Part shown: one piece after another, positions 7,579-47,554 of the stretch | How the letters are laid out: each line of letters opens with the position of its first letter | Position numbering within the stretch: position 1 is the first letter of the stretch | Assembly: GCA_964362175.1 (NCBI GenBank) | Contig: CAYIDD010000002.1 | Location: 45,939 to 109,938 of the forward strand | DNA from: an uncultured Candidatus Saccharibacteria bacterium | Lineage (GTDB): Bacteria; Patescibacteriota; Minisyncoccia; Phycocordibacterales; UBA2100 | Direction of reading: 5' to 3' | Length of the DNA: 64,000 nt | Program-made: the position numbers and the translations under genes | The notes under the pieces: generated by a model | Database searches by the model: none | Seen by the model: the letters and a program-made list of their open reading frames with translations, nothing else | What the model was told of the DNA's origin: nothing

Positions 7579-8547
7579 ATGACACGGATGTCGGTCGGAA
7601 TTTTGCGCGGTGGAACATCAAGTGAATACAATCTGTCGCTGAGATCGGGTGCCGCGATCCTCAGTGCACTTCCCGATGATCGATACGATACGCGCGATAT
7701 TTTTGTAGACAGGCGTGGATACTGGCATTTACGGGGCACACCGATGGACGCCGCACGCGCGCTTTCCCAAGTTGATGTCGTGCTCAATGCACTGCACGGG
7801 GGGCCTGGTGAGGATGGTACGGTGCAGCGCATTCTCGAACGCGCCGGCATCCCGTATGCGGGTTCGCGCGCCTCCGCCTCCGCGCTCGCGCTCAATAAAA
7901 TTCGCGCGCGAAATGTTCTTGAAAAAGCCGGCATACGAATGCCGCGCGCTTCGTCGTTCACCATGCAAGACGATCTTACTACCGGACAGATGGCGCAGCT
8001 CGTGTTTGCCCGATTCGGCCCGCCCTACGTTGTGAAGCCCCCCAGCGAGGGGGCGGCAACCGGAGTTCGCATTGCGGGGACATTGTTGGACCTGCCCGAT
8101 CTTCTGGGAGACGTGCTCGATGCATACGGCGCGGCCCTGGTGGAAGAGTATGTGCGCGGACAGGAGGCGAGTGTCGGTGTCATCGAAAATTTCCGTGGGG
8201 AAGATCTCTACGCGTTGCCTCCGGCGCATGTCGTCCTTCCGGAGGGGTTCCACTTCATGGAACTGCGGCACCACGAAGAGGGAATGTTGCGGCACATGGT
8301 GCCAAGCAGTTTTCATCATGACGAAAAACAGGCTCTTTCAAATATGGCGCGTGCTGCTCACAGGGCACTCGGCTTGTCGCATTTCTCGCGCGCGGATATC
8401 ATCCTGACGTCCCGCGGCCCGTATCTCTTGGAAGCGAATGCGATTCCCGGTCTCTACAGGGGAGCATCTTTTCCGGCGATGCTCGAATCCGTGGGTTCCT
8501 CCGTACGCGAATTTCTCGAGCACGCGATACATTTGGCTCGGAAATAA
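7579..8547 (+). CDS. ddl: D-alanine--D-alanine ligase
   Basis: 322 aa. N-terminus MSVGILRGGTSSEY, HGGPGEDGTVQ motif and an ATP-grasp C-terminal domain. Confidence 0.9.
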   Translation: MTRMSVGILRGGTSSEYNLSLRSGAAILSALPDDRYDTRDIFVDRRGYWHLRGTPMDAARALSQVDVVLNALHGGPGEDGTVQRILERAGIPYAGSRASASALALNKIRARNVLEKAGIRMPRASSFTMQDDLTTGQMAQLVFARFGPPYVVKPPSEGAATGVRIAGTLLDLPDLLGDVLDAYGAALVEEYVRGQEASVGVIENFRGEDLYALPPAHVVLPEGFHFMELRHHEEGMLRHMVPSSFHHDEKQALSNMARAAHRALGLSHFSRADIILTSRGPYLLEANAIPGLYRGASFPAMLESVGSSVREFLEHAIHLARK

Positions 8548-12480: not shown

Positions 12481-12828
12481 ATGGCTAAGAAGCTATACGT
12501 CGGCGGGCTGCCCTACAGCACGACCGATACGGAGCTCAAAGATGCTTTCGCGCAAGCGGGGACCGTCGAATCTGCTGTCATCATCATGGATAAGATGAGC
12601 GGCCGTTCAAAGGGTTTCGGCTTCGTTGAGATGTCTTCCGATGAGGATGCACAGAAGGCGATCGATATGTGGAACGGTAAGGATTTCGGCGGACGCTCTC
12701 TCACGGTAAATGAAGCGCGTCCGATGGAAGACCGACCGCGACGCGACTTTCGTAGCGGCGGCAATGACCGCGGCGGTTACGGAGGCGGACGGGGAGGCAA
12801 TGGAGGAGGTGGCGGCAGAAGCTGGTAA
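12481..12828 (+). CDS. RRM-type glycine-rich RNA-binding protein
   Basis: RNP2 LYVGGL and RNP1 KGFGFVEM motifs, with a C-terminal RGG/GGYGGG tail. Confidence 0.9.
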   Translation: MAKKLYVGGLPYSTTDTELKDAFAQAGTVESAVIIMDKMSGRSKGFGFVEMSSDEDAQKAIDMWNGKDFGGRSLTVNEARPMEDRPRRDFRSGGNDRGGYGGGRGGNGGGGGRSW

Positions 12829-13005: not shown

Positions 13006-14217
13006 ATGGTGGCATCCGGTATGCGAGCTCAATTCGTGCGTGAACCAAGTCTGGCGAACCCGCTCCGTTCTGTTCGTGCACTCGAGCTCCACCGTTTCCT
13101 CTTGCGCGCGGCGCTGGCGGGGGTGAACATATTCGCATGGATGTTCGTCTTTCAGTATTTCTACCTCGTCGAAGCGGACATCGCGCACGCACTTGCGCGC
13201 ACCGCGCTCCTGTACGCGCTCTCACAGACCATCACATGCCTCGTCACTCCGTATGCCGCGCGGCGTCTTCGCGCGGGCGCGCGCAGCGCACTGATCCTGG
13301 GAACGCTCCTCGCGGCGGTCGCGTTCTTAACACTGAGGACGATGTTTGATGGATTCTGGCTTTCCGCATTCGCCACTGATGCGGTGCTAGGCTTCGCGCT
13401 CGCGATCGGACTGTACCGCGCGTTGTATTGGGTCCCGTATTCGGTCGAAGCCGCGGCGCATTTTCAAAAAAAACCATTGCTCATCGCGGAATTCCTGATC
13501 GCGTGCGCCCCTCTCGTCGGCGGCCTCTTCATCGCGGGGATCGGTATGGGGTTTGTGTGGATCCTGTACATCGGCGCTGCAATCATCGCGCTTTCTGCAA
13601 TTCCGGCATTTTTCATCCGCAATGTCCACGAAATATTTTCGTGGGGGTATCGCGAAACATTTTTACAGCTATTTGAATTTGAGAATCGGAGGATCGTGAC
13701 GGGGGGATTTTTGGAAGGCATTTCCGGTGCGGCAACGCTCCTCTTTTGGCCGCTTGCGGTATTTTTGATCGTTGATCAGTCATTCGGCATGCTCGGTATC
13801 ATCCTCACGCTCACGTTCTGGGTAGCGATATGGATGCGGAGGTTCATTCGCAGGATGCTGCGACGTCTCCGTCTTACCGGATCGTCAGCCGCGAATATCG
13901 TTTTTGCAATTACGCCGTGGCTGTTCCGTCTCGCCGTCGCCACCCCCCTCGGCATTATTTTTGTCGACTCATTTTTCTACACAACGACGCCGCGGCGCAT
14001 GGGGATCGATCCGCTTGCTTTTGAACAGGTTGCCGATGGAGGATCATACGTCGACGAGTTCACGGCCCTAAAGGAAGTTGCTCAAGCGCTTGGCAGGATC
14101 TCACTCTGTATTTTGGGGGCAACCGCCGTGCTTCTGGTTTCGGTTCCGACCGCGCTCGCGATGGTATTTTTTATCACGGCGCTTTCCGCAGCTGCGGGGG
14201 CGTATCGGTCGCGTTAG
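13006..14217 (+). CDS. Polytopic membrane protein, possibly an MFS-type transporter
   Basis: 403 aa with about 10-12 predicted TM helices and no diagnostic motif seen. Confidence 0.5.
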   Translation: MVASGMRAQFVREPSLANPLRSVRALELHRFLLRAALAGVNIFAWMFVFQYFYLVEADIAHALARTALLYALSQTITCLVTPYAARRLRAGARSALILGTLLAAVAFLTLRTMFDGFWLSAFATDAVLGFALAIGLYRALYWVPYSVEAAAHFQKKPLLIAEFLIACAPLVGGLFIAGIGMGFVWILYIGAAIIALSAIPAFFIRNVHEIFSWGYRETFLQLFEFENRRIVTGGFLEGISGAATLLFWPLAVFLIVDQSFGMLGIILTLTFWVAIWMRRFIRRMLRRLRLTGSSAANIVFAITPWLFRLAVATPLGIIFVDSFFYTTTPRRMGIDPLAFEQVADGGSYVDEFTALKEVAQALGRISLCILGATAVLLVSVPTALAMVFFITALSAAAGAYRSR

Positions 14218-16937: not shown

Positions 16938-17651
16938 ATGCCCATCTCACCCCTGCTTTTTGTCCTGACCTCATCGATTGTCGTCGCGGGCTTCGCGGGT
17001 CTGGTCGTTTTTCTCACGTCATTCCGAAAGGGAAGTATTTTCGCCAATCCGTTCTCACGTGACTGGGGCTTGGGCCTTCTCCTTTCATCTCTGATCAGAA
17101 TACCGACCGCCTCGGCGGTCGCAGGTATGCCGTTGAGTTCGACCATTGATGGCATGGCTCCGTATTATGCCGTGGGATCGGTCGCTTTGATCGGAGCACA
17201 CGCGCTGTTTTTTCGCGGGACCGTGCGATTTTTTACAGACAGCAGGTTTTGGATCAATTATTTCCCCCTTCTTTCCTTCCTATGTGTCAATGCGGTCGTT
17301 TTCTACTCTCTACAAGTTCTTCATCTGGGGCCCGGTTGGATAATTGTGGAAGTGGCAACGGTGGTCTCGCTGAATATCCTGTTCCTCGTTGGCGCCAACT
17401 ACAAACTCATTTGCGGGGAATGTTCCCACAGAGAGCGGGTCGGTTCCTGGCTCTTCGTCATCGGCTGGGTCATGTTTCTCCTTGCGCACACGTATATGAC
17501 ATTCATGCTCCACCGATATCCGACCGATTTTTGGTTCTTTGCTATAACATCCTTCCCGACAATTTTCATTTATAGCGGCTATACGATCTCGTACCTCTTA
17601 CTGCTGTCGGGTTTTATTCTCAACTGTACCTATAAGCGAAAAAGCACGTGA
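16938..17651 (+). CDS. Hypothetical polytopic membrane protein
   Basis: 237 aa, about 7 TM helices and no family recognised. Confidence 0.5.
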   Translation: MPISPLLFVLTSSIVVAGFAGLVVFLTSFRKGSIFANPFSRDWGLGLLLSSLIRIPTASAVAGMPLSSTIDGMAPYYAVGSVALIGAHALFFRGTVRFFTDSRFWINYFPLLSFLCVNAVVFYSLQVLHLGPGWIIVEVATVVSLNILFLVGANYKLICGECSHRERVGSWLFVIGWVMFLLAHTYMTFMLHRYPTDFWFFAITSFPTIFIYSGYTISYLLLLSGFILNCTYKRKST

Positions 17652-21055: not shown

Positions 21056-22483
21056 ATGGTCTTCATAGGCGACTATGAGCAACAGGGGGTGATCACCACC
21101 GGTGATGTACGGGGCATTATCTCGGGGTTTCTTCATCTTGATCTACACAAGATAATCGACGGAACGGTGGGAAACTACTGGGGCATTTCGCGCGCGCTCC
21201 AACTCAGCATTCTCTTTTGGGGATTTATGGGTATCCTGTGGATCCAGATTCCCCACCTACCACTTTTTGCGGCTCAATGGCTTCTCGGAACAGCGCCTAT
21301 TTGGATGCCTATAGTGACGCTGGTCACAACATGGAAGATCTGGCTGTGGTATTCGCGCAGCATGTATCTCTTTAAGCGGGATTCGATGCTTCTCGAGGTG
21401 AAGATGCCGCGGGACATTACGCGTTCGCCGCGGGCGATGGAAAATGCGCTCTCGAAGCTTTGGACCGACTCGGGTGAGACGACATTCCTGAACCGCGTGT
21501 GGCAAGGTCAGTGCAGACCGTATTTTTCTCTGGAAATCGCTTCGTTCGGCGGCGAGATCCATTTCTATATATGGACGTGGCGTAACTGGAGACAGGTCGT
21601 GGAGTCAATGATGTATGCATACTATCCGGAGGTCGAGCTTGTGGAGGCCGAAGATTATGCCTCGAAGTTCAAATTCGATCCGGACACGCAGGAATGTTTT
21701 CCCACCGATTGGCGCTACGAGCCGCGCAACGACGCGTATCCCATACGCACCTACGTCGAATTCGAGCTCGATAAGGACCCCAAGGAGGAGTACAAGATCG
21801 ATCCTCTCGCAGAGGTGCTTGAGCGCATGAGTGGTCTCAGGCCAGATGAACAGATGTGGATACAGATAATCATCACGATGTGCAGGGATACTCGCGCAAA
21901 AAAAGGCGGGCATTGGTGGGAAACGGAAAATCGTTACACCGCATTGATCAAAGAAGAGATCGATGTGCTTCGCAAAGAGACGACCTCTGCCGATCCGGGT
22001 GATCGATCCGCACCTGATGCATGGAAGTCAATGGCTCGCGTCCCGATGCATCGCTACACGGAATTGATCAAGGCTATGGACCGCAACATGGGCAAGCACC
22101 CCTTCAACGTCGGCATGCGCGGCGTGTATATCTCGGATGCGAAGAATTTTGCGGGGCCGGGCTATACCGGCATGCGCTGGATATGGCGCCCTGTGGGAAA
22201 TCCGCAATATATGAACCAATTGCGTCCGCGTCGCTGGGGCAACCCATTCGACTGGCCGTGGCAGGATTATAAAGACATCCGGTGGCGCCTGATGCAGCGC
22301 AGATTTTTCGATTGTTATCGCAGGCGCTCCCATTTTTATTCTCCGTGGATCATGCCGCACAATATGATGAGCACCGAGATCATCGCGACACTGTGGCATC
22401 CGCCAAGCGCCGCGATCGGCGTTCCCGGCCTTGAGCGTATTCCCGCAAAGAAGGCGGAGCCGCCATCGAATTTGCCGAAATAA
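21056..22483 (+). CDS. Hypothetical Trp-rich membrane-anchored protein (475 aa)
   Basis: Two N-terminal TM helices, then about 370 aa that are W/R/Y-rich. No Walker or other known motif. Own TAGAAT -10 box 6 nt upstream. Confidence 0.5.
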   Translation: MVFIGDYEQQGVITTGDVRGIISGFLHLDLHKIIDGTVGNYWGISRALQLSILFWGFMGILWIQIPHLPLFAAQWLLGTAPIWMPIVTLVTTWKIWLWYSRSMYLFKRDSMLLEVKMPRDITRSPRAMENALSKLWTDSGETTFLNRVWQGQCRPYFSLEIASFGGEIHFYIWTWRNWRQVVESMMYAYYPEVELVEAEDYASKFKFDPDTQECFPTDWRYEPRNDAYPIRTYVEFELDKDPKEEYKIDPLAEVLERMSGLRPDEQMWIQIIITMCRDTRAKKGGHWWETENRYTALIKEEIDVLRKETTSADPGDRSAPDAWKSMARVPMHRYTELIKAMDRNMGKHPFNVGMRGVYISDAKNFAGPGYTGMRWIWRPVGNPQYMNQLRPRRWGNPFDWPWQDYKDIRWRLMQRRFFDCYRRRSHFYSPWIMPHNMMSTEIIATLWHPPSAAIGVPGLERIPAKKAEPPSNLPK

Positions 22484-31878: not shown

Positions 31879-33159
31879 TTACACACGCAAAGACGAAAGC
31901 AGCTTGTCTTTGTGCAAATGCGGGCCGATGATGGCGAGGTTGAGGGCGTTGGTCTTTAGGATGTCCTGCGCCACGCGTTGAATATCGTCGACTGTTACTT
32001 TGTCGATGTGTTTGATGACTTCCTCTAGGGGACGGACCCTTCCGAGCGTGATCAGGGAAGTTGCGGCGTTCTGGGCTATCTCGTCGCTCGTTTCGAGCGA
32101 AAGGGTAAGGGTTCCCTTGATGTAAGACTTGGCCTTCTCAAGCTCGGTCGCGGATATTTTCGTCCGCTTTATCTTTTTGAACTCCGTGAGAATAGTCTCG
32201 ATGGTTTTCTCAAGTTTTGAGTGTTCCACGCCAGCCTGCACGACGAAATATCCAACATCTGGATATTTGTCGGCCCATGCATGCACGGAATAAGCGAGCC
32301 CGCGCTTCTCGCGCACTTCGAGGAAGAGCCTGCTGCTCATGCCGCCGCCGAGTATCGTCGTGAGGACCGCTAAGGCGTATTCGTCTTTGTGCTCGTACGG
32401 GTAGGCGGGCACGCCGAGCATGAGTTGCGTCTGGTCGGTCTTTTTCTCTTTTATGGAGACGCGCGGTGCGCTCTGCGAACCGGAAAAGGGGAGGAAACTG
32501 GGGGCGGGGGCAGGTTTGAGGCGGCCGAATTCCTTTTTTACTTTCGCGAGCACTTTGACGGATGAGAACGAGCCTGCGATGCAGACGACCGTATTGGCGG
32601 GTACGTAGTTACGTTTCAAATACGTCGCGAAGTCTCTGCGTGAGAATGCGCGGATATTCTCTTTCGGCCCTAATATCGTGCGGCCGAGCGCGTGCTCACC
32701 GAAAATGAGTGCATCAAAGACGTTGTCTACTATGCGCATCGGCATGTCCTCGTACATGTCGATCTCTTGGATGATGGCGCCGCGCTCTTTTGTGATTTCT
32801 TTTTGCGGCAACATTGAATTGAGAAAGATGTCGCTGATGACATCGAGTGCGGTATCGAGGTAGCGCGCGCTTACCTTGGCATAATAGGCAGTTCTGTCTT
32901 TCGAAGTGAATGCGTTGTAGATGCTGCCCGTCGCGTCGAGCTCTTCGCTGATGGCGCGCGCGGTGGGGCGTTTTTTGGTGCCCTTGAAGAACATATGTTC
33001 GAGAAAGTGTGCAAGGCCGTTTTCTTGCATATTTTCGTAGCGCGAGCCAGTGCCCGACATCACCACCACGGTGGCGGTGGTCGTGTCCGGCATAGGAGAA
33101 AGGACGACGCGAAGACCATTCTTCAGAGTGTGGATGTCGTATTTCATTTCGCTGAGCAT
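31879..33159 (-). CDS. M16-family zinc metallopeptidase (insulinase-like)
   Basis: HFLEHMFFKGT (HxxEH) zinc-binding motif. About 426 aa from the ATG at 33159. Confidence 0.8.
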   Translation of the reverse strand: MLSEMKYDIHTLKNGLRVVLSPMPDTTTATVVVMSGTGSRYENMQENGLAHFLEHMFFKGTKKRPTARAISEELDATGSIYNAFTSKDRTAYYAKVSARYLDTALDVISDIFLNSMLPQKEITKERGAIIQEIDMYEDMPMRIVDNVFDALIFGEHALGRTILGPKENIRAFSRRDFATYLKRNYVPANTVVCIAGSFSSVKVLAKVKKEFGRLKPAPAPSFLPFSGSQSAPRVSIKEKKTDQTQLMLGVPAYPYEHKDEYALAVLTTILGGGMSSRLFLEVREKRGLAYSVHAWADKYPDVGYFVVQAGVEHSKLEKTIETILTEFKKIKRTKISATELEKAKSYIKGTLTLSLETSDEIAQNAATSLITLGRVRPLEEVIKHIDKVTVDDIQRVAQDILKTNALNLAIIGPHLHKDKLLSSLRV

Positions 33160-33211
33160 AGTACCTTTCGCTCTGTTGCACAAACGACTGAGACACGATA
33201 CGTTTACTCAA

Positions 33212-35134
33212 ATGACGATAAATGAAATTCGCACGAAGTATCTTGAATTCTTCGAGGCTCGCGGGCACACCATTATTCCCTCGGCGCCCATCGTGCCGCA
33301 GAACGACCCGACGACACTTTTCACCGGAAGCGGTATGCAACCGCTCGTACCCTATCTTCTGGGCCAGCCGCATCCGAAGGGGAGTCGCCTCGTGAACAGC
33401 CAAAAAAGCTTTCGTGCCGAAGACATTGAGGAAGTGGGGGATAATCGGCACACGACATTTTTTGAGATGCTCGGCAACTGGTCGCTTGGTGATTATTTCA
33501 AAAAGGAACAGTTGCTGTGGTTCTTCGAATTTTTGACCGAAGAGATAGGGCTCGATCCGAAAAAACTGTACGTGACTGCTTTCATCGGCGACGAAAAAAA
33601 TAACGTTCCGCGCGATACGGAATCTGCGGAGATATGGACGAAACTTTTTGCGAGTAAGGGAATTGACGCAAAAGTCGTTGCCATCGGCTCTGAGGCAGAC
33701 GGATATCGCTTAGGTATGCAGGGCGGCCGTGTATTCTTCTACGACGCGAAGAAAAATTGGTGGAGCAGGGCCGGAGTGCCGGAAAATATGCCCGCGGGAG
33801 AGCCCGGCGGACCCGATTCGGAGGTGTTTTATGATTTTGGCACGCCGCACGACCCGAAATTCGGCATCGAGTGCCATCCCAACTGTGACTGCGGGCGCTT
33901 TCTGGAAATAGGGAACTCAGTTTTCATGCAGTATCTCAAGCAACCCGATGCTTCATTTGGACTGCTTCCCAAACGAAACGTGGATTTCGGCGGCGGGCTC
34001 GAGCGCATAGCTGCTGCGGCAGCAGGAGACCCTGACGTGTTCGCCATCGATGTATTTGCCGAAACGATAGGCCTTCTTGTGCACTTCTCCGAAAAAAATT
34101 ATGAAGACAGTCGATACAAGCGCTCGTTCCGCATCGTTGCCGACCACATGCGTGCGGCCACCTTTATGCTCAGTGCCGGCGTGCGTCCTTCGAACACGGA
34201 GCGTGGCTATGTGCTGCGCCGATTGCTCCGCCGCGCGGCGCAGCACGCGCAAAAGCTCGGCGTCGAGCACGGGGAGGGCAGGGAAAGTATGCTCGTGAAA
34301 TGCGCCATGAATTTTATCGAAAAATACAAGCAGGCGTATTCCGAGTTGGAAAGTGAGGAGGCGTACCAGCAGATCACCGATGAGATCTGGAAAGAGGAGA
34401 AGCAATTCGCGCACACACTTGAAAGCGGCATGAAGGAATTCGAAAAAGTCGCGCGGACAGGCCACATCTCGGGCGCTGCGGCATCGACGCTGTTCACCAC
34501 GCACGGATTCCCGTTCGAAATGACGACAGAACTTGCGAAAGAGCGCGGTATCGATGTCGACGAGGAGGGCTTCAGGGCGGAGATGAAAAAGCACCAGCAA
34601 CTCTCGCGGGCTGGAAGCGAGCAGAAATTCAAAGGAGGACTTGCGGATACGTCCGAAAAAACAACCCGCTTGCACACGGCGCACCACCTTCTGCTCAAAG
34701 CGCTGCAGATGGTGCTGGGTCCTGCGGTAAAGCAGCGCGGCAGCAACATCACGCAAGAGCGCCTGCGTATCGACTTCTCTTACGGAGCCAAGACGACGCC
34801 TGAGCAGATAAAAGAAGTCGAGCGGATAGTGAACGAAAAGATCAACGAAGCGATACCGATGACCCGTTCGACACTGCCCAAAAACGAGGCGGAAAAACTC
34901 GGCGCCGAGCACGAATTCGGCGCAAAATATCCCGACATGGTCTCTGTCTACTCATTGGGCCCCAAGGGAGCAACGCAAGAAGATCCCCAATTCGACAAAG
35001 CGTTCTCAATAGAATTCTGCGGCGGGCCTCACGTTCTGAATACGCGTGAAATAGGGGAGAGTGGCGTCTTCAAAATCAAAAAAGAAGAAGCGGTTGCCGC
35101 GGGGATCCGTCGCATCAAGGCGGTGTTGGAATAA
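33212..35134 (+). CDS. alaS: Alanine--tRNA ligase, short form lacking the C-Ala domain
   Basis: N-terminus MTINEIRTKYLEFFEARGH, class II core, editing domain (HTAHHLL...CGGPHV). Ends right after the editing domain at about 640 aa. Confidence 0.85.
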   Translation: MTINEIRTKYLEFFEARGHTIIPSAPIVPQNDPTTLFTGSGMQPLVPYLLGQPHPKGSRLVNSQKSFRAEDIEEVGDNRHTTFFEMLGNWSLGDYFKKEQLLWFFEFLTEEIGLDPKKLYVTAFIGDEKNNVPRDTESAEIWTKLFASKGIDAKVVAIGSEADGYRLGMQGGRVFFYDAKKNWWSRAGVPENMPAGEPGGPDSEVFYDFGTPHDPKFGIECHPNCDCGRFLEIGNSVFMQYLKQPDASFGLLPKRNVDFGGGLERIAAAAAGDPDVFAIDVFAETIGLLVHFSEKNYEDSRYKRSFRIVADHMRAATFMLSAGVRPSNTERGYVLRRLLRRAAQHAQKLGVEHGEGRESMLVKCAMNFIEKYKQAYSELESEEAYQQITDEIWKEEKQFAHTLESGMKEFEKVARTGHISGAAASTLFTTHGFPFEMTTELAKERGIDVDEEGFRAEMKKHQQLSRAGSEQKFKGGLADTSEKTTRLHTAHHLLLKALQMVLGPAVKQRGSNITQERLRIDFSYGAKTTPEQIKEVERIVNEKINEAIPMTRSTLPKNEAEKLGAEHEFGAKYPDMVSVYSLGPKGATQEDPQFDKAFSIEFCGGPHVLNTREIGESGVFKIKKEEAVAAGIRRIKAVLE

Positions 35135-35195
35135 TTACTCACACATAACTCGGGAGTGCGCCTCTATGTACCCGTAGGCACGATATACTGACGAA

Positions 35196-36362
35196 ATGTT
35201 CGGAACACATCTCGGGCGCGGGCGCGGGAAGATAGTCGCTGTCGCCGATATTGGAAGCGGAAGCGCGGGTGTCGCAATACTCGGCATTCATCCCGGCGAG
35301 CCGGTATCGGTCCTTGCTGCCGAACGCGCCATCCTTTCCATGGAGGATCGTGGGGAAGAGGCAACAACGACGGGGGTCGCCGATCAACTCGTAAAAGCGG
35401 GAGAAGCCGTCAGAAAAAAATTCACTAATCTGGGCAAGGATGCACATCCCATACATGAACTCTACGTCATCATACGGGCGCCGTGGAGCCATTCCGAGAC
35501 GAAACGTGTCTCGACGACATTCAAAGAGCAAATCACGGTTACCGATCATATGATCGGCGAGCTTGCCGAGCGAGCGCTCGCCGAGGTGAGGGAGCTCGAT
35601 CGTGGGAACTTTCTGGAAGCCAAGGTGATACGGGTCGAGCTCAACGGGTACTCGTGTGCGAAACCCGTGGGCAAGCACGCAACGGAGATCTCGGCATTTG
35701 TGCTGATAAGCGGTTGGCACTCGACCATCCGCGCCAAAATAGAGGCGTCTTTGCAAAAGGTGTTTCCCCACCTTTCCCCCGCATTCCGCTCTTCAGTATG
35801 GGCGGCGATCGCGGTGTTGCGGGAGGGAATGTCGCAAGAATATGATTATCTCATCGTCGACATGTCGAGCGAGGGGACAGCATTCGTGGCGATCCGCGAT
35901 GGTGTCGCCACCGAACACATGCTTATTCAGGAGGGGGTGCGCACCATACTGAAACGTGTCTCCGGATCGGGAATGCCTGAAGAGGCTCTGAACCTCATCC
36001 GCATGCTTTCGTCGGATCAATGCTCGAGCGCCGCGTGCGAGGCTACCCGCGAGTCGCTCGCTCGTGCGGAGCCGGAACTTGTACGGGTCTTCGGGGAAGC
36101 GCTCGGCACATGCGCATCGGAACAACGATTACCAAACACGCTCATTCTATTCGTTCATCCCGATGTTGCCACGTGGCTTTCGCGTTTCTTTTCACGTATC
36201 GACTTTTCGCAATTCACGAAAACGGCGCAACCGTTCCAGGTGAGGATCGTCGGCACTACTGACCTTTCGACATGGGTGGCACCGTCGGGCGGCATGGTAT
36301 TGGATCCGGGACTCGCGCTTGGAAGCGCACTTGTCAACATCGAGAAGCGGAGGGGGCAATGA
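35196..36362 (+). CDS. Actin-like (ASKHA-superfamily) ATPase, FtsA/PilM/Ppx-like
   Basis: Phosphate-1 VAVADIGSGSAGVAILGI and phosphate-2 LIVDMSSEGTAFVAI motifs, 388 aa. Exact family unresolved. Confidence 0.5.
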   Translation: MFGTHLGRGRGKIVAVADIGSGSAGVAILGIHPGEPVSVLAAERAILSMEDRGEEATTTGVADQLVKAGEAVRKKFTNLGKDAHPIHELYVIIRAPWSHSETKRVSTTFKEQITVTDHMIGELAERALAEVRELDRGNFLEAKVIRVELNGYSCAKPVGKHATEISAFVLISGWHSTIRAKIEASLQKVFPHLSPAFRSSVWAAIAVLREGMSQEYDYLIVDMSSEGTAFVAIRDGVATEHMLIQEGVRTILKRVSGSGMPEEALNLIRMLSSDQCSSAACEATRESLARAEPELVRVFGEALGTCASEQRLPNTLILFVHPDVATWLSRFFSRIDFSQFTKTAQPFQVRIVGTTDLSTWVAPSGGMVLDPGLALGSALVNIEKRRGQ

Positions 36363-36383
36363 GGTTTGGTATACTGAGTCGCT

Positions 36384-37736
36384 ATGGCTAAGGACTATTT
36401 TCAAGACATTATGCCACCGTCCCACGACCCCGAAGAGGCGCGGGAGATCCCGATCCGCCACAGCGACGAGGATGAGATCGAGGTACAGACAGAGCTCGTT
36501 CGCGGTATACGCAATATCTCATCCCCCGCTCGAATGCGTCCGGCCCCTCGTCCTGTTCAGGTGCCGGTCGGAGATGAACGCGAGATCCACCGACCCTCTC
36601 GTCTCTGGATCTGGGCCGTGGCGGCAGTTCTGGCGTTGGTCCTCTCTGTCTTTGCTCTCCTCATGTTCCGCTCAACGAGCGTGACCATTACGCCCAAATC
36701 ACGTCTCACATCCTTTACCGATACGATCCTTTACAATGCGTATCCTGCCGGTGCGGCGGACGGGTCGCTCCCATACACGGTTCAGAGTTTTGATATAGAG
36801 GATTCGGAAGTTGTTCCTTCCCAGGGGACGGTTCATGTTGAGAGAAAGGCTTCGGGAAGCATCACGGTATTCAATGAGCATTCCAGCGCGGTCGTGCGTC
36901 TGATCAAAAATACCCGCTTCGAGACGCCTGAGGGCCTCATTTTCCGGACCCCTGCGGATATCGTCGTACCAGGAAAGACGAGCGCCGGGCCGGGGACCGT
37001 GAACGTGACGGTTGTCGCAGATCAGGTGGGGGAAAAGTACAACATCGGGCCTGTTGCGCGCTTTAATCTGCCGGGGCTCAAATCGGGGGAAATGTATACG
37101 AAGGTTTACGCAAAATCGAACACTGCCATGTCGGGGGGATTCGCGGGTGAGGAGCCGGGTACAGCGCCCGGAGCACTCAACGCCGCTATCGCAGCGGTGC
37201 GTGGTCGGCTGGAATCCAACGCCCGTGAATCCGTACGCACGCTTATCACTGCGGACTCCGTCGCGTTCCCTGAGATCGTCCGGATCACCTATCAGTCGCT
37301 GCCGAACACACAGGAAGCCGGGCCCGGTGTACGGATCCATGAAAAAGCGCACGTCGAGGTTCCTATATTACCGGCGGATGTCTTTGCCGCGATCATCGCT
37401 CAATCCACGGCTGCGGATACGGGCAATTCGTCCATAAAACTCATTCCAGGCAAGGATTTTGGGGCTCGTTTGGCGACCACGGCCCCCATCTCCCTTGGGG
37501 CTGATCCACTTACATTCGTCTTGATCGGCCAGGCCCGTTTGGTGTGGAACGTCGATGAAAAAGCGCTCGCAGAGGCTCTTGCGGGCCATGACAGCGACGC
37601 GTTCCAGACCATCGTCAACGGTTTCTCGGGCGTTCAGGAAGCACATGCAAGAATAGAACCATTTTGGAAAAAAGCATTCCCCAAAGACGCGGCGGATATC
37701 AAAATAACGATCAAGGAATTCGAGATGGAGCCGTAG
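36384..37736 (+). CDS. Bitopic membrane protein with a large extracytoplasmic domain (450 aa), probably in an operon with the upstream actin-like ATPase
   Basis: About 75-aa acidic cytoplasmic N-terminus, single TM (LWIWAVAAVLALVLSVFALLMF), then a 350-aa beta-rich domain. Starts 21 nt after the previous gene. Confidence 0.5.
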   Translation: MAKDYFQDIMPPSHDPEEAREIPIRHSDEDEIEVQTELVRGIRNISSPARMRPAPRPVQVPVGDEREIHRPSRLWIWAVAAVLALVLSVFALLMFRSTSVTITPKSRLTSFTDTILYNAYPAGAADGSLPYTVQSFDIEDSEVVPSQGTVHVERKASGSITVFNEHSSAVVRLIKNTRFETPEGLIFRTPADIVVPGKTSAGPGTVNVTVVADQVGEKYNIGPVARFNLPGLKSGEMYTKVYAKSNTAMSGGFAGEEPGTAPGALNAAIAAVRGRLESNARESVRTLITADSVAFPEIVRITYQSLPNTQEAGPGVRIHEKAHVEVPILPADVFAAIIAQSTAADTGNSSIKLIPGKDFGARLATTAPISLGADPLTFVLIGQARLVWNVDEKALAEALAGHDSDAFQTIVNGFSGVQEAHARIEPFWKKAFPKDAADIKITIKEFEMEP

Positions 37737-45712: not shown

Positions 45713-46201
45713 ATGGACTTCCACGCATGGTGGGCTTTGGCGGAACAGTGGCCGACGGATTGGATCATTATCGGCGCACTGGTCACCTTTGTGGCACTCG
45801 ACGCGCTCCGTTCCGGCTCCGCCCGCGCGGCCGCTCTCGCTTTATCACTTCCCGCGGCGCTGGTTGTGACGAACGCATTGCCGCAAGCATTCTTTCTCGG
45901 TCCCCTTACTGCGGAATTCACCGCGCCCATGATACACGTGGCGATATTTTCCGGAATATTCGTACTTCTCTATTTTGCAACGCATCGAAGTATCTTCACG
46001 TTCTCGGTCGGTGGAGGCATTATCCAATCTATCGTCGCGGGTATCGCAGCGATCATCGTTCTCATTCTGATTTGGCTCCAAATTCCCACGCTTGATTCGG
46101 TGTGGAATTTTGGCGGACAGGTGCGTGCTGTCTTCGCTCCGGCCTATCAATTTTGGTGGTTCTTTGTGGCTTTCCTCGGTCTGACTTTTGCGAGGAGTTA
46201 A
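45713..46201 (+). CDS. Hypothetical polytopic membrane protein
   Basis: 162 aa, about 5 TM helices. Confidence 0.45.
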   Translation: MDFHAWWALAEQWPTDWIIIGALVTFVALDALRSGSARAAALALSLPAALVVTNALPQAFFLGPLTAEFTAPMIHVAIFSGIFVLLYFATHRSIFTFSVGGGIIQSIVAGIAAIIVLILIWLQIPTLDSVWNFGGQVRAVFAPAYQFWWFFVAFLGLTFARS

Positions 46202-46430: not shown

Positions 46431-47078
46431 ATGGGGATGGTCGAGTCGGGAATCATTGCCGCAGCGCTTCAGGTTGCAGGATACCTTTTTTATGGCTCCA
46501 AGGTCCTTCGCGAAGATATACTCCCGAATCCGGCATCCTGGTTGATGTTTGCCTACGGAACTCTATTTCTCTTCATCGTCGAGTGGGATCGGGATGCGAG
46601 TTTCGCGATCCTAGCGCTTCCTGCGGCCTGTGCGATCTCCAGTATTGCAGTCGCCCTCTATACCCTGCGGAAGCAACGCGGGTGGTGGCCGGAACATATT
46701 CTCGAGAAATTTTCATTCGGGCTCGACATCCTCTTGACGGTCGCGTATGTTTCTGCCTGGTTTTTCTTTACGGGAGATCTTATCAGTGCGGATATGAGAG
46801 AGGCGGCTACGATAATTATTCTTTTATGTTGGAACGTGGGTATATTCACGTCCTTTTTCCCGCTGCTGCGCCAGGTGTACCACCATCCGAGGACAGAGCA
46901 TGCACTTCCGTGGATAGTCTGGACGGGCGCGTACGTCATGCTTGCAACAGTTACGGTGATGGAAGTAGGTGGTATCAATGAGCTTTTCTTATACCCCGTT
47001 ATCAACGCCTGCGTACATGGACTCATCGCCATCCGTACGGCATACTGGCACCACTCTCACGGACTCTCCATAGTATGA
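46431..47078 (+). CDS. Hypothetical polytopic membrane protein, translationally coupled to the downstream SET-domain gene
   Basis: 215 aa, about 6 TM helices. Its stop overlaps the next ATG as ATGA. Confidence 0.5.
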   Translation: MGMVESGIIAAALQVAGYLFYGSKVLREDILPNPASWLMFAYGTLFLFIVEWDRDASFAILALPAACAISSIAVALYTLRKQRGWWPEHILEKFSFGLDILLTVAYVSAWFFFTGDLISADMREAATIIILLCWNVGIFTSFFPLLRQVYHHPRTEHALPWIVWTGAYVMLATVTVMEVGGINELFLYPVINACVHGLIAIRTAYWHHSHGLSIV

Positions 47079-47554
47079 AACGAATAAAAGTGTTCAAAAG
47101 CTCTATTCACGGCCGAGGTATATTTGCCGACGAGACAATCTCCAAAGGCGAGCGCATTACCTACATCCGCGGGCCCATAAAACAGAAAACTCCTCGGGGT
47201 CCGCGCGACTCAAAAATTATCGGTAACTGGATCGGTGTTGCAAAAGATACTTGGATCAAACCGGAGGCACCGTATATGTACCTAAACCACTCCTGTAATC
47301 CTAACTCCGCATTGATAACCAAGCGTTTACTTATCGCACTTCGACCGATAGCGCGAAACGAGGAAATTACTATGGATTACTCATTGACCGATAGTGATTT
47401 GCACTGGGGGATACGTTGTTCGTGCGGGGCCAGAAATTGTCGCAAGCATATTCGAGCAATACAAACGCTCTCTCCCCGGATTTTTCGGCACTACCTCCCG
47501 CATATACCGCCCTACTTTCAGAAAGTGTACGCAAAGGCCCACACCCACGGATAA
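47075..47554 (+). CDS. SET-domain protein (putative lysine methyltransferase)
   Basis: NHSCNPN pseudoknot motif and EEITMDY; post-SET-like CSCGARNC cysteine cluster. 159 aa. Confidence 0.7.
   Translation: MKRIKVFKSSIHGRGIFADETISKGERITYIRGPIKQKTPRGPRDSKIIGNWIGVAKDTWIKPEAPYMYLNHSCNPNSALITKRLLIALRPIARNEEITMDYSLTDSDLHWGIRCSCGARNCRKHIRAIQTLSPRIFRHYLPHIPPYFQKVYAKAHTHG

What the first reader, a model, noticed from the sequence alone, without database searches (positions are those of the whole stretch)
35196..37736. Actin-like ATPase followed by a bitopic membrane protein with a large external domain: candidate novel cytoskeletal or envelope system
The 388-aa protein has ASKHA phosphate-1 and phosphate-2 motifs (VADIGSGSAGV; VDMSSEGTAF) but does not clearly match FtsA, PilM, MreB or Ppx. 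Twenty-one nt downstream is a 450-aa protein. It has an acidic 75-aa cytoplasmic N-terminus, one TM helix and a 350-aa beta-rich extracytoplasmic domain, and is unlike PilN (no INLLP motif) or FtsQ. The dcw fragment later in the window (mraY-ftsW-murG) lacks ftsQAZ. So this pair could be a divergent divisome or pilus-assembly module, or something new.
Basis: partly seen in the sequence, partly recalled or inferred. Interest (0 to 1): 0.55.

Follow-up and report, generated by a model that had tools for sequence, protein, structure and literature searches.

The report
FtsA-like protein plus baseplate-like membrane partner
Two adjacent genes found in every sampled Kaiserbacteria-type (candidate phyla radiation) genome encode an unannotated, very divergent relative of the cell-division/pilus actin-like proteins FtsA and PilM, and a single-pass membrane protein whose outer part resembles a phage baseplate wedge protein; they probably form one complex across the membrane, but what it does is not known.

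Summary
ORF A (35196-36362, 388 aa) and ORF B (36384-37736, 450 aa) are real, conserved genes of a Patescibacteria (Kaiserbacteria-type) genome.

B has a disordered N-terminal tail with two conserved short motifs (MAKDYFQDIxPP and RGIRNI), one TM helix, and a 355-aa ectodomain. The ectodomain aligns along its length with phage baseplate wedge proteins (Mu gp47 type). Only its beta-barrel matches by sequence.

B follows A in 83 of 83 related loci (79 species). That whole region is syntenic, so adjacency alone is weak evidence of a link.

Best reading: B's tail tethers A to the membrane, as PilN does for PilM and FtsN does for FtsA. This is inferred and was not tested. The process served (division or envelope scaffold most likely) is unresolved. 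I could not check whether canonical ftsA, ftsZ or pil genes exist elsewhere in these genomes.

Verdict: a new variant of a known kind, of moderate interest.

The parts
35184..35189 (+). -10-like hexamer TATACT ending 6 nt before the ATG of A (leaderless-type promoter candidate)
   Evidence: Read from the sequence. The same element sits at a fixed -12 to -14 before the first genes of other transcription units in the window and is absent before genes internal to operons.
35196..36362 (+). Gene A: 388-aa FtsA/PilM-class actin-fold protein, in no annotated family
35241..35273 (+). Phosphate-1 loop VADIGSGSAGV (residues 16-26)
   Evidence: D18 is present in 72 of 81 family members and G20 in 49 of 81. 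The hhalign alignment places it on residues 7-17 of E. coli FtsA.
35481..35720 (+). Approximate IC (SHS2-type) subdomain, residues about 96-175, which defines the FtsA/PilM class
35616..35675 (+). Conserved IC block EAxVxRVELNGYxTxxPxGK (residues 141-160)
   Evidence: Mean column conservation 0.70-0.72. T154-P157-G159 align to E. coli FtsA I143-P146-G148, next to the FtsN-peptide contact region and the I143L suppressor site described in PMC7613929.
35850..35885 (+). Degenerate phosphate-2 position LIVDMSSEGTAF (residues 219-230)
   Evidence: Aligned to VVDIGGGTMDIAV of E. coli FtsA. D222 is present in 62 of 81 members and the glycines are mostly lost.
35937..36113 (+). Helical IIB-like region (residues 248-306) with conserved PEExLxLxRM, DQCxxxAC and AEPELVRxFGEA
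   Evidence: Secondary structure of the model and conservation. The subdomain assignment is inferred from position relative to FtsA.
36186..36236 (+). Most conserved stretch of A: FFSRIDFSQFTKTAQPF (residues 331-347), the family signature
   Evidence: Block conservation 0.87. D336, F337, T341 and P346 are invariant. The genome scan used it as a search pattern.
36370..36375 (+). -10-like TATACT in the 21-nt A-B spacer, 8 nt before the ATG of B
   Evidence: Sequence. An extended -10, TG(A/G)TATA(C/A)T, is conserved at this place in most of 80 related loci.
36384..37736 (+). Gene B: 450-aa single-pass membrane protein
   Evidence: ORF. AF2 model. 459 homologues. Directly downstream of A in 83 of 83 loci.
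36384..36419 (+). Tail motif 1, MAKDYFQDIMPP (residues 1-12), at the extreme N-terminus
   Evidence: M1, D4, Y5, F6, D8, I9 and P11 are invariant or at least 90% conserved among 40 sequences. The core Y-x-x-D-I-x-P persists in the most divergent members. Not found in other ORFs of the window or the loci.
36501..36518 (+). Tail motif 2, RGIRNI (residues 40-45)
   Evidence: I42 and R43 are invariant; R40 and I45 are at least 90% conserved. It is retained as RSIRNI, RSIRDF or RSIRHI in divergent members. It lies in a stretch with pLDDT below 50, between linkers of variable length.
36597..36665 (+). Single transmembrane helix (residues 72-94)
   Evidence: The only hydrophobic peak (Kyte-Doolittle 19-residue mean up to 2.75). 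Flanking K+R averages 3.55 on the N side and 2.30 on the C side, with the N side higher in 32 of 40 sequences. Helix in the model.
36666..37733 (+). Folded ectodomain (residues 95-450), phage baseplate-wedge (gp47/J)-like
36846..37151 (+). Baseplate_J / GlxA-type beta-barrel (residues 155-256)

Best explanation
A and B are the two halves of a lineage-specific complex that spans the membrane. A is a soluble cytoplasmic protein with the FtsA/PilM actin fold, including the extra IC subdomain. Unlike FtsA it has no amphipathic membrane-targeting helix. Its nucleotide-binding motifs are partly decayed, so it probably works mainly as a scaffold and not as an active ATPase. B is inserted with its N-terminus inside the cell. 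Its disordered cytoplasmic tail carries two conserved short motifs. I infer that these dock A onto the membrane, most likely in the IA-IC cleft, in the way the N-terminal peptides of PilN and FtsN dock PilM and FtsA. On the outside, B displays a domain descended from, or sharing ancestry with, phage baseplate wedge proteins. Through A, events in the cytoplasm (oligomerisation, or binding of a third partner) would be coupled to the position or clustering of this surface domain. The most likely process is organisation of envelope growth or cell division, with A acting as an FtsA-equivalent that uses a protein anchor. What is shown: the folds, the motifs, the lack of an anchor on A, the strict co-occurrence, and the core-genome location. 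What is inferred: the A-B contact, the topology, and the process.

For: Weak sequence signals point to FtsA, not PilM. The family profile hits only FtsA chains in the PDB (E 0.0017). PF14450 (FtsA) is the commonest weak Pfam hit (5 of 42 members) and PilM_2 is never hit.

No anchor on A: 77 of 81 family members end 6-9 residues after position 380, inside the last helix of the fold.

B's tail: two conserved motifs sit in an otherwise variable, disordered tail and are unique to B. Motif 1 is at the extreme N-terminus. That is also the part of FtsN (residues 1-8) seen in the IA-IC cleft of FtsA; PilN binds the same cleft of PilM (PMC7613929).

One of A's best conserved blocks (residues 141-160) aligns to the FtsA IC-subdomain region around I143.

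Co-occurrence: B lies directly downstream of A on the same strand in 83 of 83 loci from 79 species, with identity to A as low as 33%. One database protein is an A-B fusion.

Rate covariation: after removing the trend shared with neighbouring genes, A-B has r = 0.37, the second highest of 78 pairs, and each is the other's best partner.

Core role: the pair sits between alaS and infA-rpsM-rpsK-rpsD-rpoA in every genome. There are no relatives in viral contigs and no hits to defence-system models.
Against: The surrounding 20 or so genes keep the same order in all relatives, so adjacency and co-occurrence could reflect frozen synteny within one lineage.

Both genes have their own -10-like element, so they need not be one transcript.

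The rate-covariation signal is modest. It may partly arise because both proteins evolve fast and their distances saturate.

The positive-inside bias is only moderate, 3.55 against 2.30 K+R.

For a divisome role: the pair is not next to ftsZ or any dcw gene. No ftsZ was seen in the window or its flanks. A evolves far faster than FtsA normally does. Many CPR bacteria have a canonical ftsA, and I could not establish whether these genomes do.

Sequence homology to FtsA is not demonstrable by standard criteria (hhalign probability 11.8%).
Confidence: 0.4

Rival explanations
1. PilM-PilN-type alignment module. A is the PilM and B a replacement for PilN/PilO of a type IV pilus or competence pilus machine encoded elsewhere in the genome.
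Confidence: 0.12
2. Surface apparatus. The working part is B's baseplate-like ectodomain, acting in attachment to a host cell, as a phage receptor or decoy, or as a ring-forming surface structure. A only clusters or regulates it from inside.
For: The ectodomain aligns along its length with whole phage wedge proteins and shares their barrel by sequence. A and B evolve 2-8 times faster than their neighbours, which is typical of proteins at a host or phage interface. CPR bacteria are commonly episymbionts (established knowledge).
Against: No other tail, baseplate or fibre gene is nearby. The pair is present in every sampled genome at a fixed core-genome position, with no relatives in viral contigs and no defence-model hits. 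Wedge proteins of this type are structural and do not bind receptors themselves (established knowledge of T4 gp6, Mu gp47 and P2 gpJ). The cytoplasmic protein A evolves faster than the exposed protein B.
Confidence: 0.2
3. The two genes are not functionally linked. They are neighbours only because gene order in this part of the chromosome is frozen in this lineage.
For: The whole stretch Mrr-MgtC-PDDEXK-UDG-M16-alaS-A-B-infA-...-dnaK-dnaJ keeps the same order in nearly all loci. Each gene has its own promoter-like element.
Against: A needs a membrane anchor and B offers conserved cytoplasmic peptides with no other evident partner. Both families appear confined to the same lineage and both lack any other annotation. 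In the rate-covariation test each is the other's best partner. The spacer is short, with a median of 36 nt.
Confidence: 0.1
4. Inverted topology. B's baseplate-like domain is cytoplasmic, as in T6SS and cytoplasmic contractile injection system baseplates, and contacts A directly. The N-terminal tail is outside.
For: The positive-inside bias is only moderate, and the C-flank has conserved R and K residues. TssF-type baseplate proteins act on the cytoplasmic face of the membrane (established knowledge).
Against: A 70-100-residue tail with about 25 charged residues and an Arg-rich cluster next to the helix is unlikely to be exported without a signal peptide. In 32 of 40 sequences the N-flank is the more positive one. 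No sheath, tube, TssE, TssG or TssK genes are nearby.
Confidence: 0.08
5. A is a metabolic ASKHA enzyme (sugar kinase, Ppx/GppA, acetate kinase type).
For: Three of 42 members give weak Ppx-GppA Pfam hits (best E 8e-4). The phosphate-1 Asp is mostly kept.
Confidence: 0.02

Closest known systems
FtsA with FtsN (divisome; PDB 7Q6D, 7Q6I; PMC7613929)
   Different: About 12% identity, and no FtsA Pfam or NCBIfam hit at threshold. A has no C-terminal amphipathic helix. The pair is not in a dcw/ftsQAZ context. The partner has a baseplate-wedge-like ectodomain, not FtsN's linker and SPOR domain. The nucleotide motifs are degenerate. The family evolves much faster.
PilM with PilN (type IVa pilus alignment complex; PDB 2YCH, 3JC8, 5EOU)
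   Different: No hit to the PilM_2 model. The motif is KDYFQDIxPP, not INLLP. The tail is 70-100 residues with a second motif, not about 20-30 residues. There is no PilN/PilO-type periplasmic domain, no pilO, and no pilus genes nearby.
Baseplate J / gp47 / gp6-type wedge proteins of contractile tails (Mu gp47 9KI1, cyanophage A-1(L) wedge 8KEA, phi812 9EUF); TssF of T6SS is the cellular analogue
   Same: B's ectodomain (about 355 aa) is the size of a whole gp47-type protein and aligns along its length with such proteins in Foldseek (probability 0.99-1.0). The beta-barrel is also recognised by Pfam PF04865 and PHROG phrog_6.
   Different: B carries an N-terminal cytoplasmic tail and a TM helix. 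No other tail or baseplate gene is in the neighbourhood. B sits at a fixed core-genome position in every genome. Global superposition is poor (TM about 0.2). Sequence similarity is confined to about 100 residues.
GlxA beta-barrel domain (Streptomyces membrane-anchored radical copper oxidase, PDB 4UNM)
   Different: B has no copper-oxidase propeller domain. The similarity is limited to one barrel whose function in GlxA is itself unknown.
GspL/EpsL (type II secretion)
   Same: The same principle: a PilM-like actin-fold domain coupled through one TM segment to an outside domain (from established knowledge; not tested here).
   Different: In GspL the two parts are one polypeptide. No GspL chain appears among the listed fold matches, and there are no secretion genes nearby.

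Membership tests
Actin/ASKHA fold superfamily | Two RNase-H-like lobes (actin fold) | tested here: met
Actin/ASKHA fold superfamily | Intact phosphate-1, phosphate-2 and adenosine nucleotide-binding motifs | tested here: inconclusive
   Phosphate-1 Asp is present in 72 of 81 members. Phosphate-2 Asp is present in 62 of 81, with the glycines mostly lost (DMxSExT). The adenosine GG is replaced by (A/T/V)-H-P-D. T. maritima FtsA also has a degenerate phosphate-2 (NLGYNFT) and, by established knowledge of its crystal structures, still binds ATP. So nucleotide binding cannot be ruled in or out.
FtsA | Actin fold with a IC (SHS2) subdomain in place of IB | tested here: met
FtsA | Recognised by curated FtsA sequence models (PF14450, PF02491, NCBIfam ftsA) | tested here: not met
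   No hit at E up to 1 for the window protein. Only 5 of 42 relatives give sub-threshold PF14450 hits, best E 0.0018. hhalign probability to E. coli FtsA is 11.8%.
FtsA | C-terminal amphipathic membrane-targeting helix after a linker | tested here: not met
   The protein ends at residue 388 inside the last helix of the fold (371-387). In 77 of 81 members only 6-9 residues follow position 380.
FtsA | Encoded with ftsZ (ftsQAZ / dcw cluster) | tested here: not met
   The neighbours are alaS and infA/ribosomal protein genes in all 83 loci. There is no ftsZ or ftsQ in the 64-kb window or in the fetched flanks.
FtsA | Binds the FtsZ C-terminal peptide and tethers the Z-ring | not testable with these tools
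   The FtsZ of this genome could not be retrieved. The likeness of B's motif 1 (DYFQDIxPP) to the E. coli FtsZ tail (DYLDIPAFL) is only a loose lead.
PilM | FtsA-like fold without a membrane anchor | tested here: met
PilM | Recognised by the PilM_2 model (PF11104) | tested here: not met
   No hit in any of 42 family members at E up to 10.
PilM | Followed by pilN (INLLP-type N-terminus) and pilO, within a pilus gene cluster | tested here: not met
   The downstream protein has a different motif and a different ectodomain. No pilus genes were found in the window or the loci.
PilN / FtsN / FtsQ-DivIB (single-pass partners) | Characteristic outside domain: PilN ferredoxin-like, FtsN SPOR, FtsQ POTRA | tested here: not met
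PilN / FtsN / FtsQ-DivIB (single-pass partners) | N-in single-pass topology with a conserved extreme N-terminal peptide that binds the actin-like partner | tested here: inconclusive
   The conserved N-terminal motif and single TM helix are shown. N-in orientation is favoured but not proven. Binding was not tested.
Baseplate J / gp47 wedge proteins | Recognised by PF04865 or phage wedge profiles | tested here: met
   PF04865 23.3 bits against a cut-off of 21.1, covering residues 155-256 only. 22 of 40 relatives hit it. phrog_6 E 4.1e-7.
Baseplate J / gp47 wedge proteins | Whole-protein, multi-domain fold similarity | tested here: inconclusive
Baseplate J / gp47 wedge proteins | Encoded within a contractile-tail, T6SS or contractile injection system gene set | tested here: not met
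   No tail, sheath, tube or other baseplate genes were found in the window or in 83 loci. No relatives in IMG/VR.

The most novel reading that the evidence does not exclude
Kaiserbacteria-type CPR bacteria have turned a whole phage baseplate wedge protein into a permanent cell-surface structure. It is anchored by one TM helix, and its cytoplasmic tail recruits a private, nucleotide-independent FtsA-like protein. Wedge proteins form 12-copy rings and FtsA can form 12-membered mini-rings on membranes, so the pair might build a ring-shaped complex across the envelope. Such a complex could replace the missing amphipathic-helix FtsA in division or mark the contact site with the host. This would be a cytoskeleton-to-surface coupling device with no described counterpart.
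Probability: 0.2. Interest if true: 0.8.

Novelty: new variant of a known kind. Interest (0 to 1): 0.55.

Why it matters
FtsA and PilM are the only well-described members of the actin-fold class that has a IC subdomain. Both work by being coupled to the membrane and to single-pass partners. This is a third, unannotated branch, with 2659 cluster representatives in a 1.84-billion-protein library. It has lost FtsA's own membrane anchor and sits next to a partner with an unprecedented ectodomain, one related to phage baseplates.

If A turns out to be the FtsA-equivalent of these reduced genomes, it would show a different way of anchoring the division machinery in CPR bacteria, whose cell biology is almost unexplored. 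If it is not, it is a new surface system of organisms that live attached to other cells. It would also be an example of a phage structural protein being co-opted into the core genome.

Either way, both families can now be given informative names in place of 'hypothetical protein' and the misleading 'baseplate J/gp47 family protein'.

Tried and rejected
- **Sequence family searches for A.** Pfam, NCBIfam, PDB sequences, PHROGs and PADLOC gave nothing at threshold.
- **PilN, FtsQ or FtsN identity for B.** Rejected.
- **Prophage or contractile injection system origin of the locus.** Rejected. There are no other tail genes, the pair sits at a fixed core position, and there are no relatives in IMG/VR.
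- **Defence system.** No PADLOC hit.
- **Reaching relatives in a different gene context.** The third homologue search, using the most divergent member (L078), found only 6 proteins. The two divergent representatives I looked up lie in the same synteny. The weak tail of the 2659 representatives could not be listed; it may be largely gene fragments from short contigs, which is my guess.
- **Looking for ftsA, ftsZ or pil genes in the same genome.** The window has none. Two flank look-ups added only housekeeping genes.
- **AFDB fold search.** The library was not available.
- **Literature.** Seven full-text searches found no description of this pair or of FtsA in Kaiserbacteria.
- **Other proteins with B's motifs.** None in the window or the loci, so there is no sign that A is a hub for several partners.
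- **Rate covariation.** Supportive but modest.
- **Residue-level co-variation between B's tail and A.** Not attempted. With about 80 related sequences and essentially one deep split, it would not be interpretable.
Full report
**Observation.** A is 35196-36362 (+, 388 aa) and B is 36384-37736 (+, 450 aa), separated by 21 nt. Both are identical to deposited proteins of a 'Patescibacteria group bacterium' MAG: P0001, 'hypothetical protein', and P0121, 'baseplate J/gp47 family protein'. Named homologues come almost only from Candidatus Kaiserbacteria / Paceibacterota MAGs.

The window is a typical reduced CPR chromosome segment. alaS lies upstream. Downstream are infA, rpsM, rpsK, rpsD, rpoA, rplQ, rplM, rpsI, grpE, dnaK and dnaJ. 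Further on, mraY, ftsW and murG are followed by gltX and an M23 peptidase. There is no ftsQ, ftsA, ftsZ or pilus gene in the 64 kb.

**Protein A.** No Pfam, NCBIfam, PHROG, PADLOC or PDB-sequence family is matched. An alignment of 42 relatives (A1) gave a confident AlphaFold2 model (pLDDT 93, pTM 0.90).

So A belongs to the FtsA/PilM structural class, the one with a IC (SHS2) subdomain.

At the sequence level the relationship is barely visible:
- The family profile hits only FtsA chains in the PDB (T. maritima FtsA E 0.0017, through the IC region).
- hhalign to E. coli FtsA is collinear (residues 11-262 onto 7-251) but has only 11.8% probability.
- Among 42 members the commonest sub-threshold Pfam hit is FtsA (5 members, best E 0.0018). 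PilM_2 is never hit.

These weak signals lean towards FtsA, not PilM, but they do not establish membership.

Two defining FtsA features were tested and not met. There is no C-terminal membrane-targeting helix: the chain ends in the last helix of the fold, and 77 of 81 relatives have only 6-9 residues after position 380. There is also no ftsZ/dcw context.

The nucleotide site is partly decayed across 81 species-level sequences. The phosphate-1 Asp is present in 72 of 81. The phosphate-2 Asp is present in 62 of 81, with the glycines mostly gone. The adenosine GG is replaced by (A/T/V)-H-P-D. One divergent member (L078) keeps a canonical LIDCGVGGTDIV. This suggests descent from a normal ATP-binding ancestor.

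The best conserved parts of A are not the nucleotide loops. They are FFSRIDFSQFTxTxQPF (331-347), AEPELVRxFGEA (291-300), PEExLxLxRM (261-270) and RVELNGYxTxxPxGK in the IC subdomain (141-160). That IC block aligns to E. coli FtsA residues around I143-P146-G148. According to PMC7613929, this is the neighbourhood of the IA-IC cleft where residues 1-8 of FtsN bind. PilN binds the same cleft of PilM.

**Protein B.** The model (pLDDT 85.7) shows a disordered N-terminal 70 residues, one helix at 72-94 (the only hydrophobic peak), and a well-folded beta-rich domain at 95-450.

The tail varies in length and sequence except for two short motifs:
- MAKDYFQDIxPP at the extreme N-terminus. The core Y-x-x-D-I-x-P survives in the most divergent members, for example MARNYMQDITP and MKTYMHDIDP.
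- R-(G/S)-I-R-(N/D)-I, further along the tail (residues 40-45 in the window protein).

An Arg-rich stretch follows, directly before the TM helix. The motifs occur in no other ORF of the window or of 83 related loci.

Flanking charges favour an N-in orientation (K+R 3.55 against 2.30; the N side is higher in 32 of 40 sequences). A 70-100-residue, highly charged tail is also unlikely to be exported. Even so, the topology is inferred and not shown.

Foldseek aligns 339-379 columns, essentially the whole ectodomain, with whole wedge proteins of similar size (Mu gp47 is 356-359 residues). Probability is 0.99-1.0 and E is 1.7e-6 to 3.5e-4, but TM is only about 0.2. I read this as likely homology of the whole ectodomain with a different domain arrangement, and I rate it inconclusive.

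No PilN, PilO, FtsQ (POTRA) or FtsN (SPOR) similarity was found. The gene is not in a phage or injection-system context. Neither A nor B has relatives in IMG/VR viral contigs.

**Distribution and linkage.** A full HMM search of 1.84 billion cluster representatives found 2659 relatives of A (2050 at E of 1e-10 or better, 569 at 1e-30 or better). Many of the listed ones are fragments.

A scan of one genome per species returned 79 loci, all Kaiserbacteria/Paceibacteria MAGs, with identity to A down to 33%. In all 83 loci held, B lies immediately downstream on the same strand, with a median spacer of 36 nt. One database protein (P0319, 868 aa) is an A-B read-through fusion.

The surrounding 20 or so genes keep the same order in nearly all loci. 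Adjacency is therefore not independent evidence of a functional link.

Both genes also carry a -10-like TATACT 6-8 nt before the ATG. In this window that spacing marks the first genes of transcription units and is absent before genes internal to operons. Before B the element is conserved as TG(A/G)TATA(C/A)T in most relatives. B can probably be transcribed on its own.

A crude rate-covariation test on 53 loci and 13 gene families gave A-B a residual correlation of 0.37. That is the second highest of 78 pairs, and each is the other's best partner. This is supportive but modest, and it is possibly inflated because both evolve fast (mean Kimura distance 1.26 and 0.90, against 0.14-0.68 for neighbours).

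**Most likely mechanism.** A is a soluble FtsA/PilM-class protein with no way of reaching the membrane by itself. The next gene encodes a membrane protein whose only conserved cytoplasmic features are two short linear motifs, one at the extreme N-terminus.

This is the logic of PilM-PilN and of FtsA-FtsN, where an N-terminal peptide of a single-pass protein lies in the IA-IC cleft (PMC7613929). I therefore propose that B tethers A, and that the pair couples a cytoplasmic scaffold to a baseplate-wedge-like surface domain (confidence 0.4).

The process is less certain. A division or envelope-growth role is favoured by four things: the slightly better match to FtsA, presence in every sampled genome, the core-genome position, and the absence of pilus genes. 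The rivals are a pilus-alignment role (0.12), a surface/host-interface role centred on B (0.2), no functional link (0.1), inverted topology (0.08) and a metabolic enzyme (0.02).

B's motif 1 (DYFQDIxPP) loosely resembles the E. coli FtsZ C-terminal peptide (DYLDIPAFL). I treat that as a lead only.

**What could not be done.** The AFDB library was unavailable. Whether a canonical ftsA, ftsZ or pilMNO coexists is therefore unknown. Seven literature searches found no description of the pair.

**Verdict.** A is a new, unannotated branch of the FtsA/PilM class. B is a membrane-anchored baseplate-wedge-like protein. Together they are best described as a new variant of the known 'actin-like protein plus single-pass partner' design, with an unprecedented ectodomain and an unknown cellular role. 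Interest 0.55. The most novel reading not excluded is a co-opted baseplate ring coupled to an FtsA-like scaffold (probability about 0.2, interest 0.8 if true).

Noticed in passing
window 35184-35189, 36370-36375; also upstream of genes starting at 7579, 15447, 21056, 44600, 47607, 54117 and of 61896(-): A -10-like hexamer (TAnAnT, often TATACT or TAGAAT) sits at a fixed -12 to -14 from the ATG of the first genes of transcription units and is absent before genes internal to operons. This suggests widespread leaderless or near-leaderless transcripts in this genome. Before B it is conserved as an extended -10, TG(A/G)TATA(C/A)T, in most of 80 related loci.
   Followed up: partly
window 33050-35134 (alaS): The mechanical ORF starts at a GTG and overlaps the divergent M16 peptidase gene. 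The likely true start is Met55 (nt 33212, MTINEIRTKY...). That gives an AlaRS of about 640 aa, much shorter than the roughly 875-aa E. coli enzyme (length from memory). Relatives-663 aa.
   Followed up: partly
P0319 (metagenome protein, 868 aa): A natural read-through fusion of an A homologue and a B homologue, joined by ...SHAGEWYTLDSM-TKEYFDDITPP.... It could be a real fusion or a lost stop codon or sequencing error.
   Followed up: no
window 36021-36038 (A residues 276-281): Two Cys residues conserved in at least 90% of sequences, in DQCxxxAC within the helical IIB-like region of A (C276, C281). They could form a disulfide or a metal or redox site.
   Followed up: no
L078:3910-5058 (A homologue of a divergent Kaiserbacteria MAG): This homologue keeps a canonical phosphate-2 motif, LIDCGVGGTDIV, where most of the family has VDMxSExT. 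L074's homologue has lost the phosphate-1 Asp (IVSAASDG). The nucleotide site is therefore evolving differently in different sublineages.
   Followed up: partly
L001:9698-9889, L003:9743-9916, L004:118-291: A small ORF of 57-63 aa with no Pfam hit is called between alaS and A in some relatives. The window has only 61 nt there, so it is not a constant part of the locus.
   Followed up: no
window 35196-37736 compared with neighbours, across 53 loci: A and B evolve 2-8 times faster than the flanking housekeeping genes, and the cytoplasmic protein A evolves faster than the exposed protein B (mean Kimura distance 1.26 and 0.90 against 0.14-0.68). This is unexplained.
   Followed up: partly
window 12481-12828; 47075-47554; 21056-22483; 13006-14217; 16938-17651; 45713-46201; 46431-47078: Other features of the window: a glycine-rich RRM-type RNA-binding protein, judged by eye from its sequence only (12481-12828); a SET-domain protein (47075-47554); and several membrane proteins with no Pfam hit, including a 475-aa Trp/Arg-rich protein just upstream of yceG/mltG.
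   Followed up: no
L086:1623-5006: Just beyond the right end of the window, the LeuRS gene product (1127 aa) carries extra NUDIX hits and faint hydrolase Pfam hits, suggesting an inserted or fused domain.
   Followed up: no
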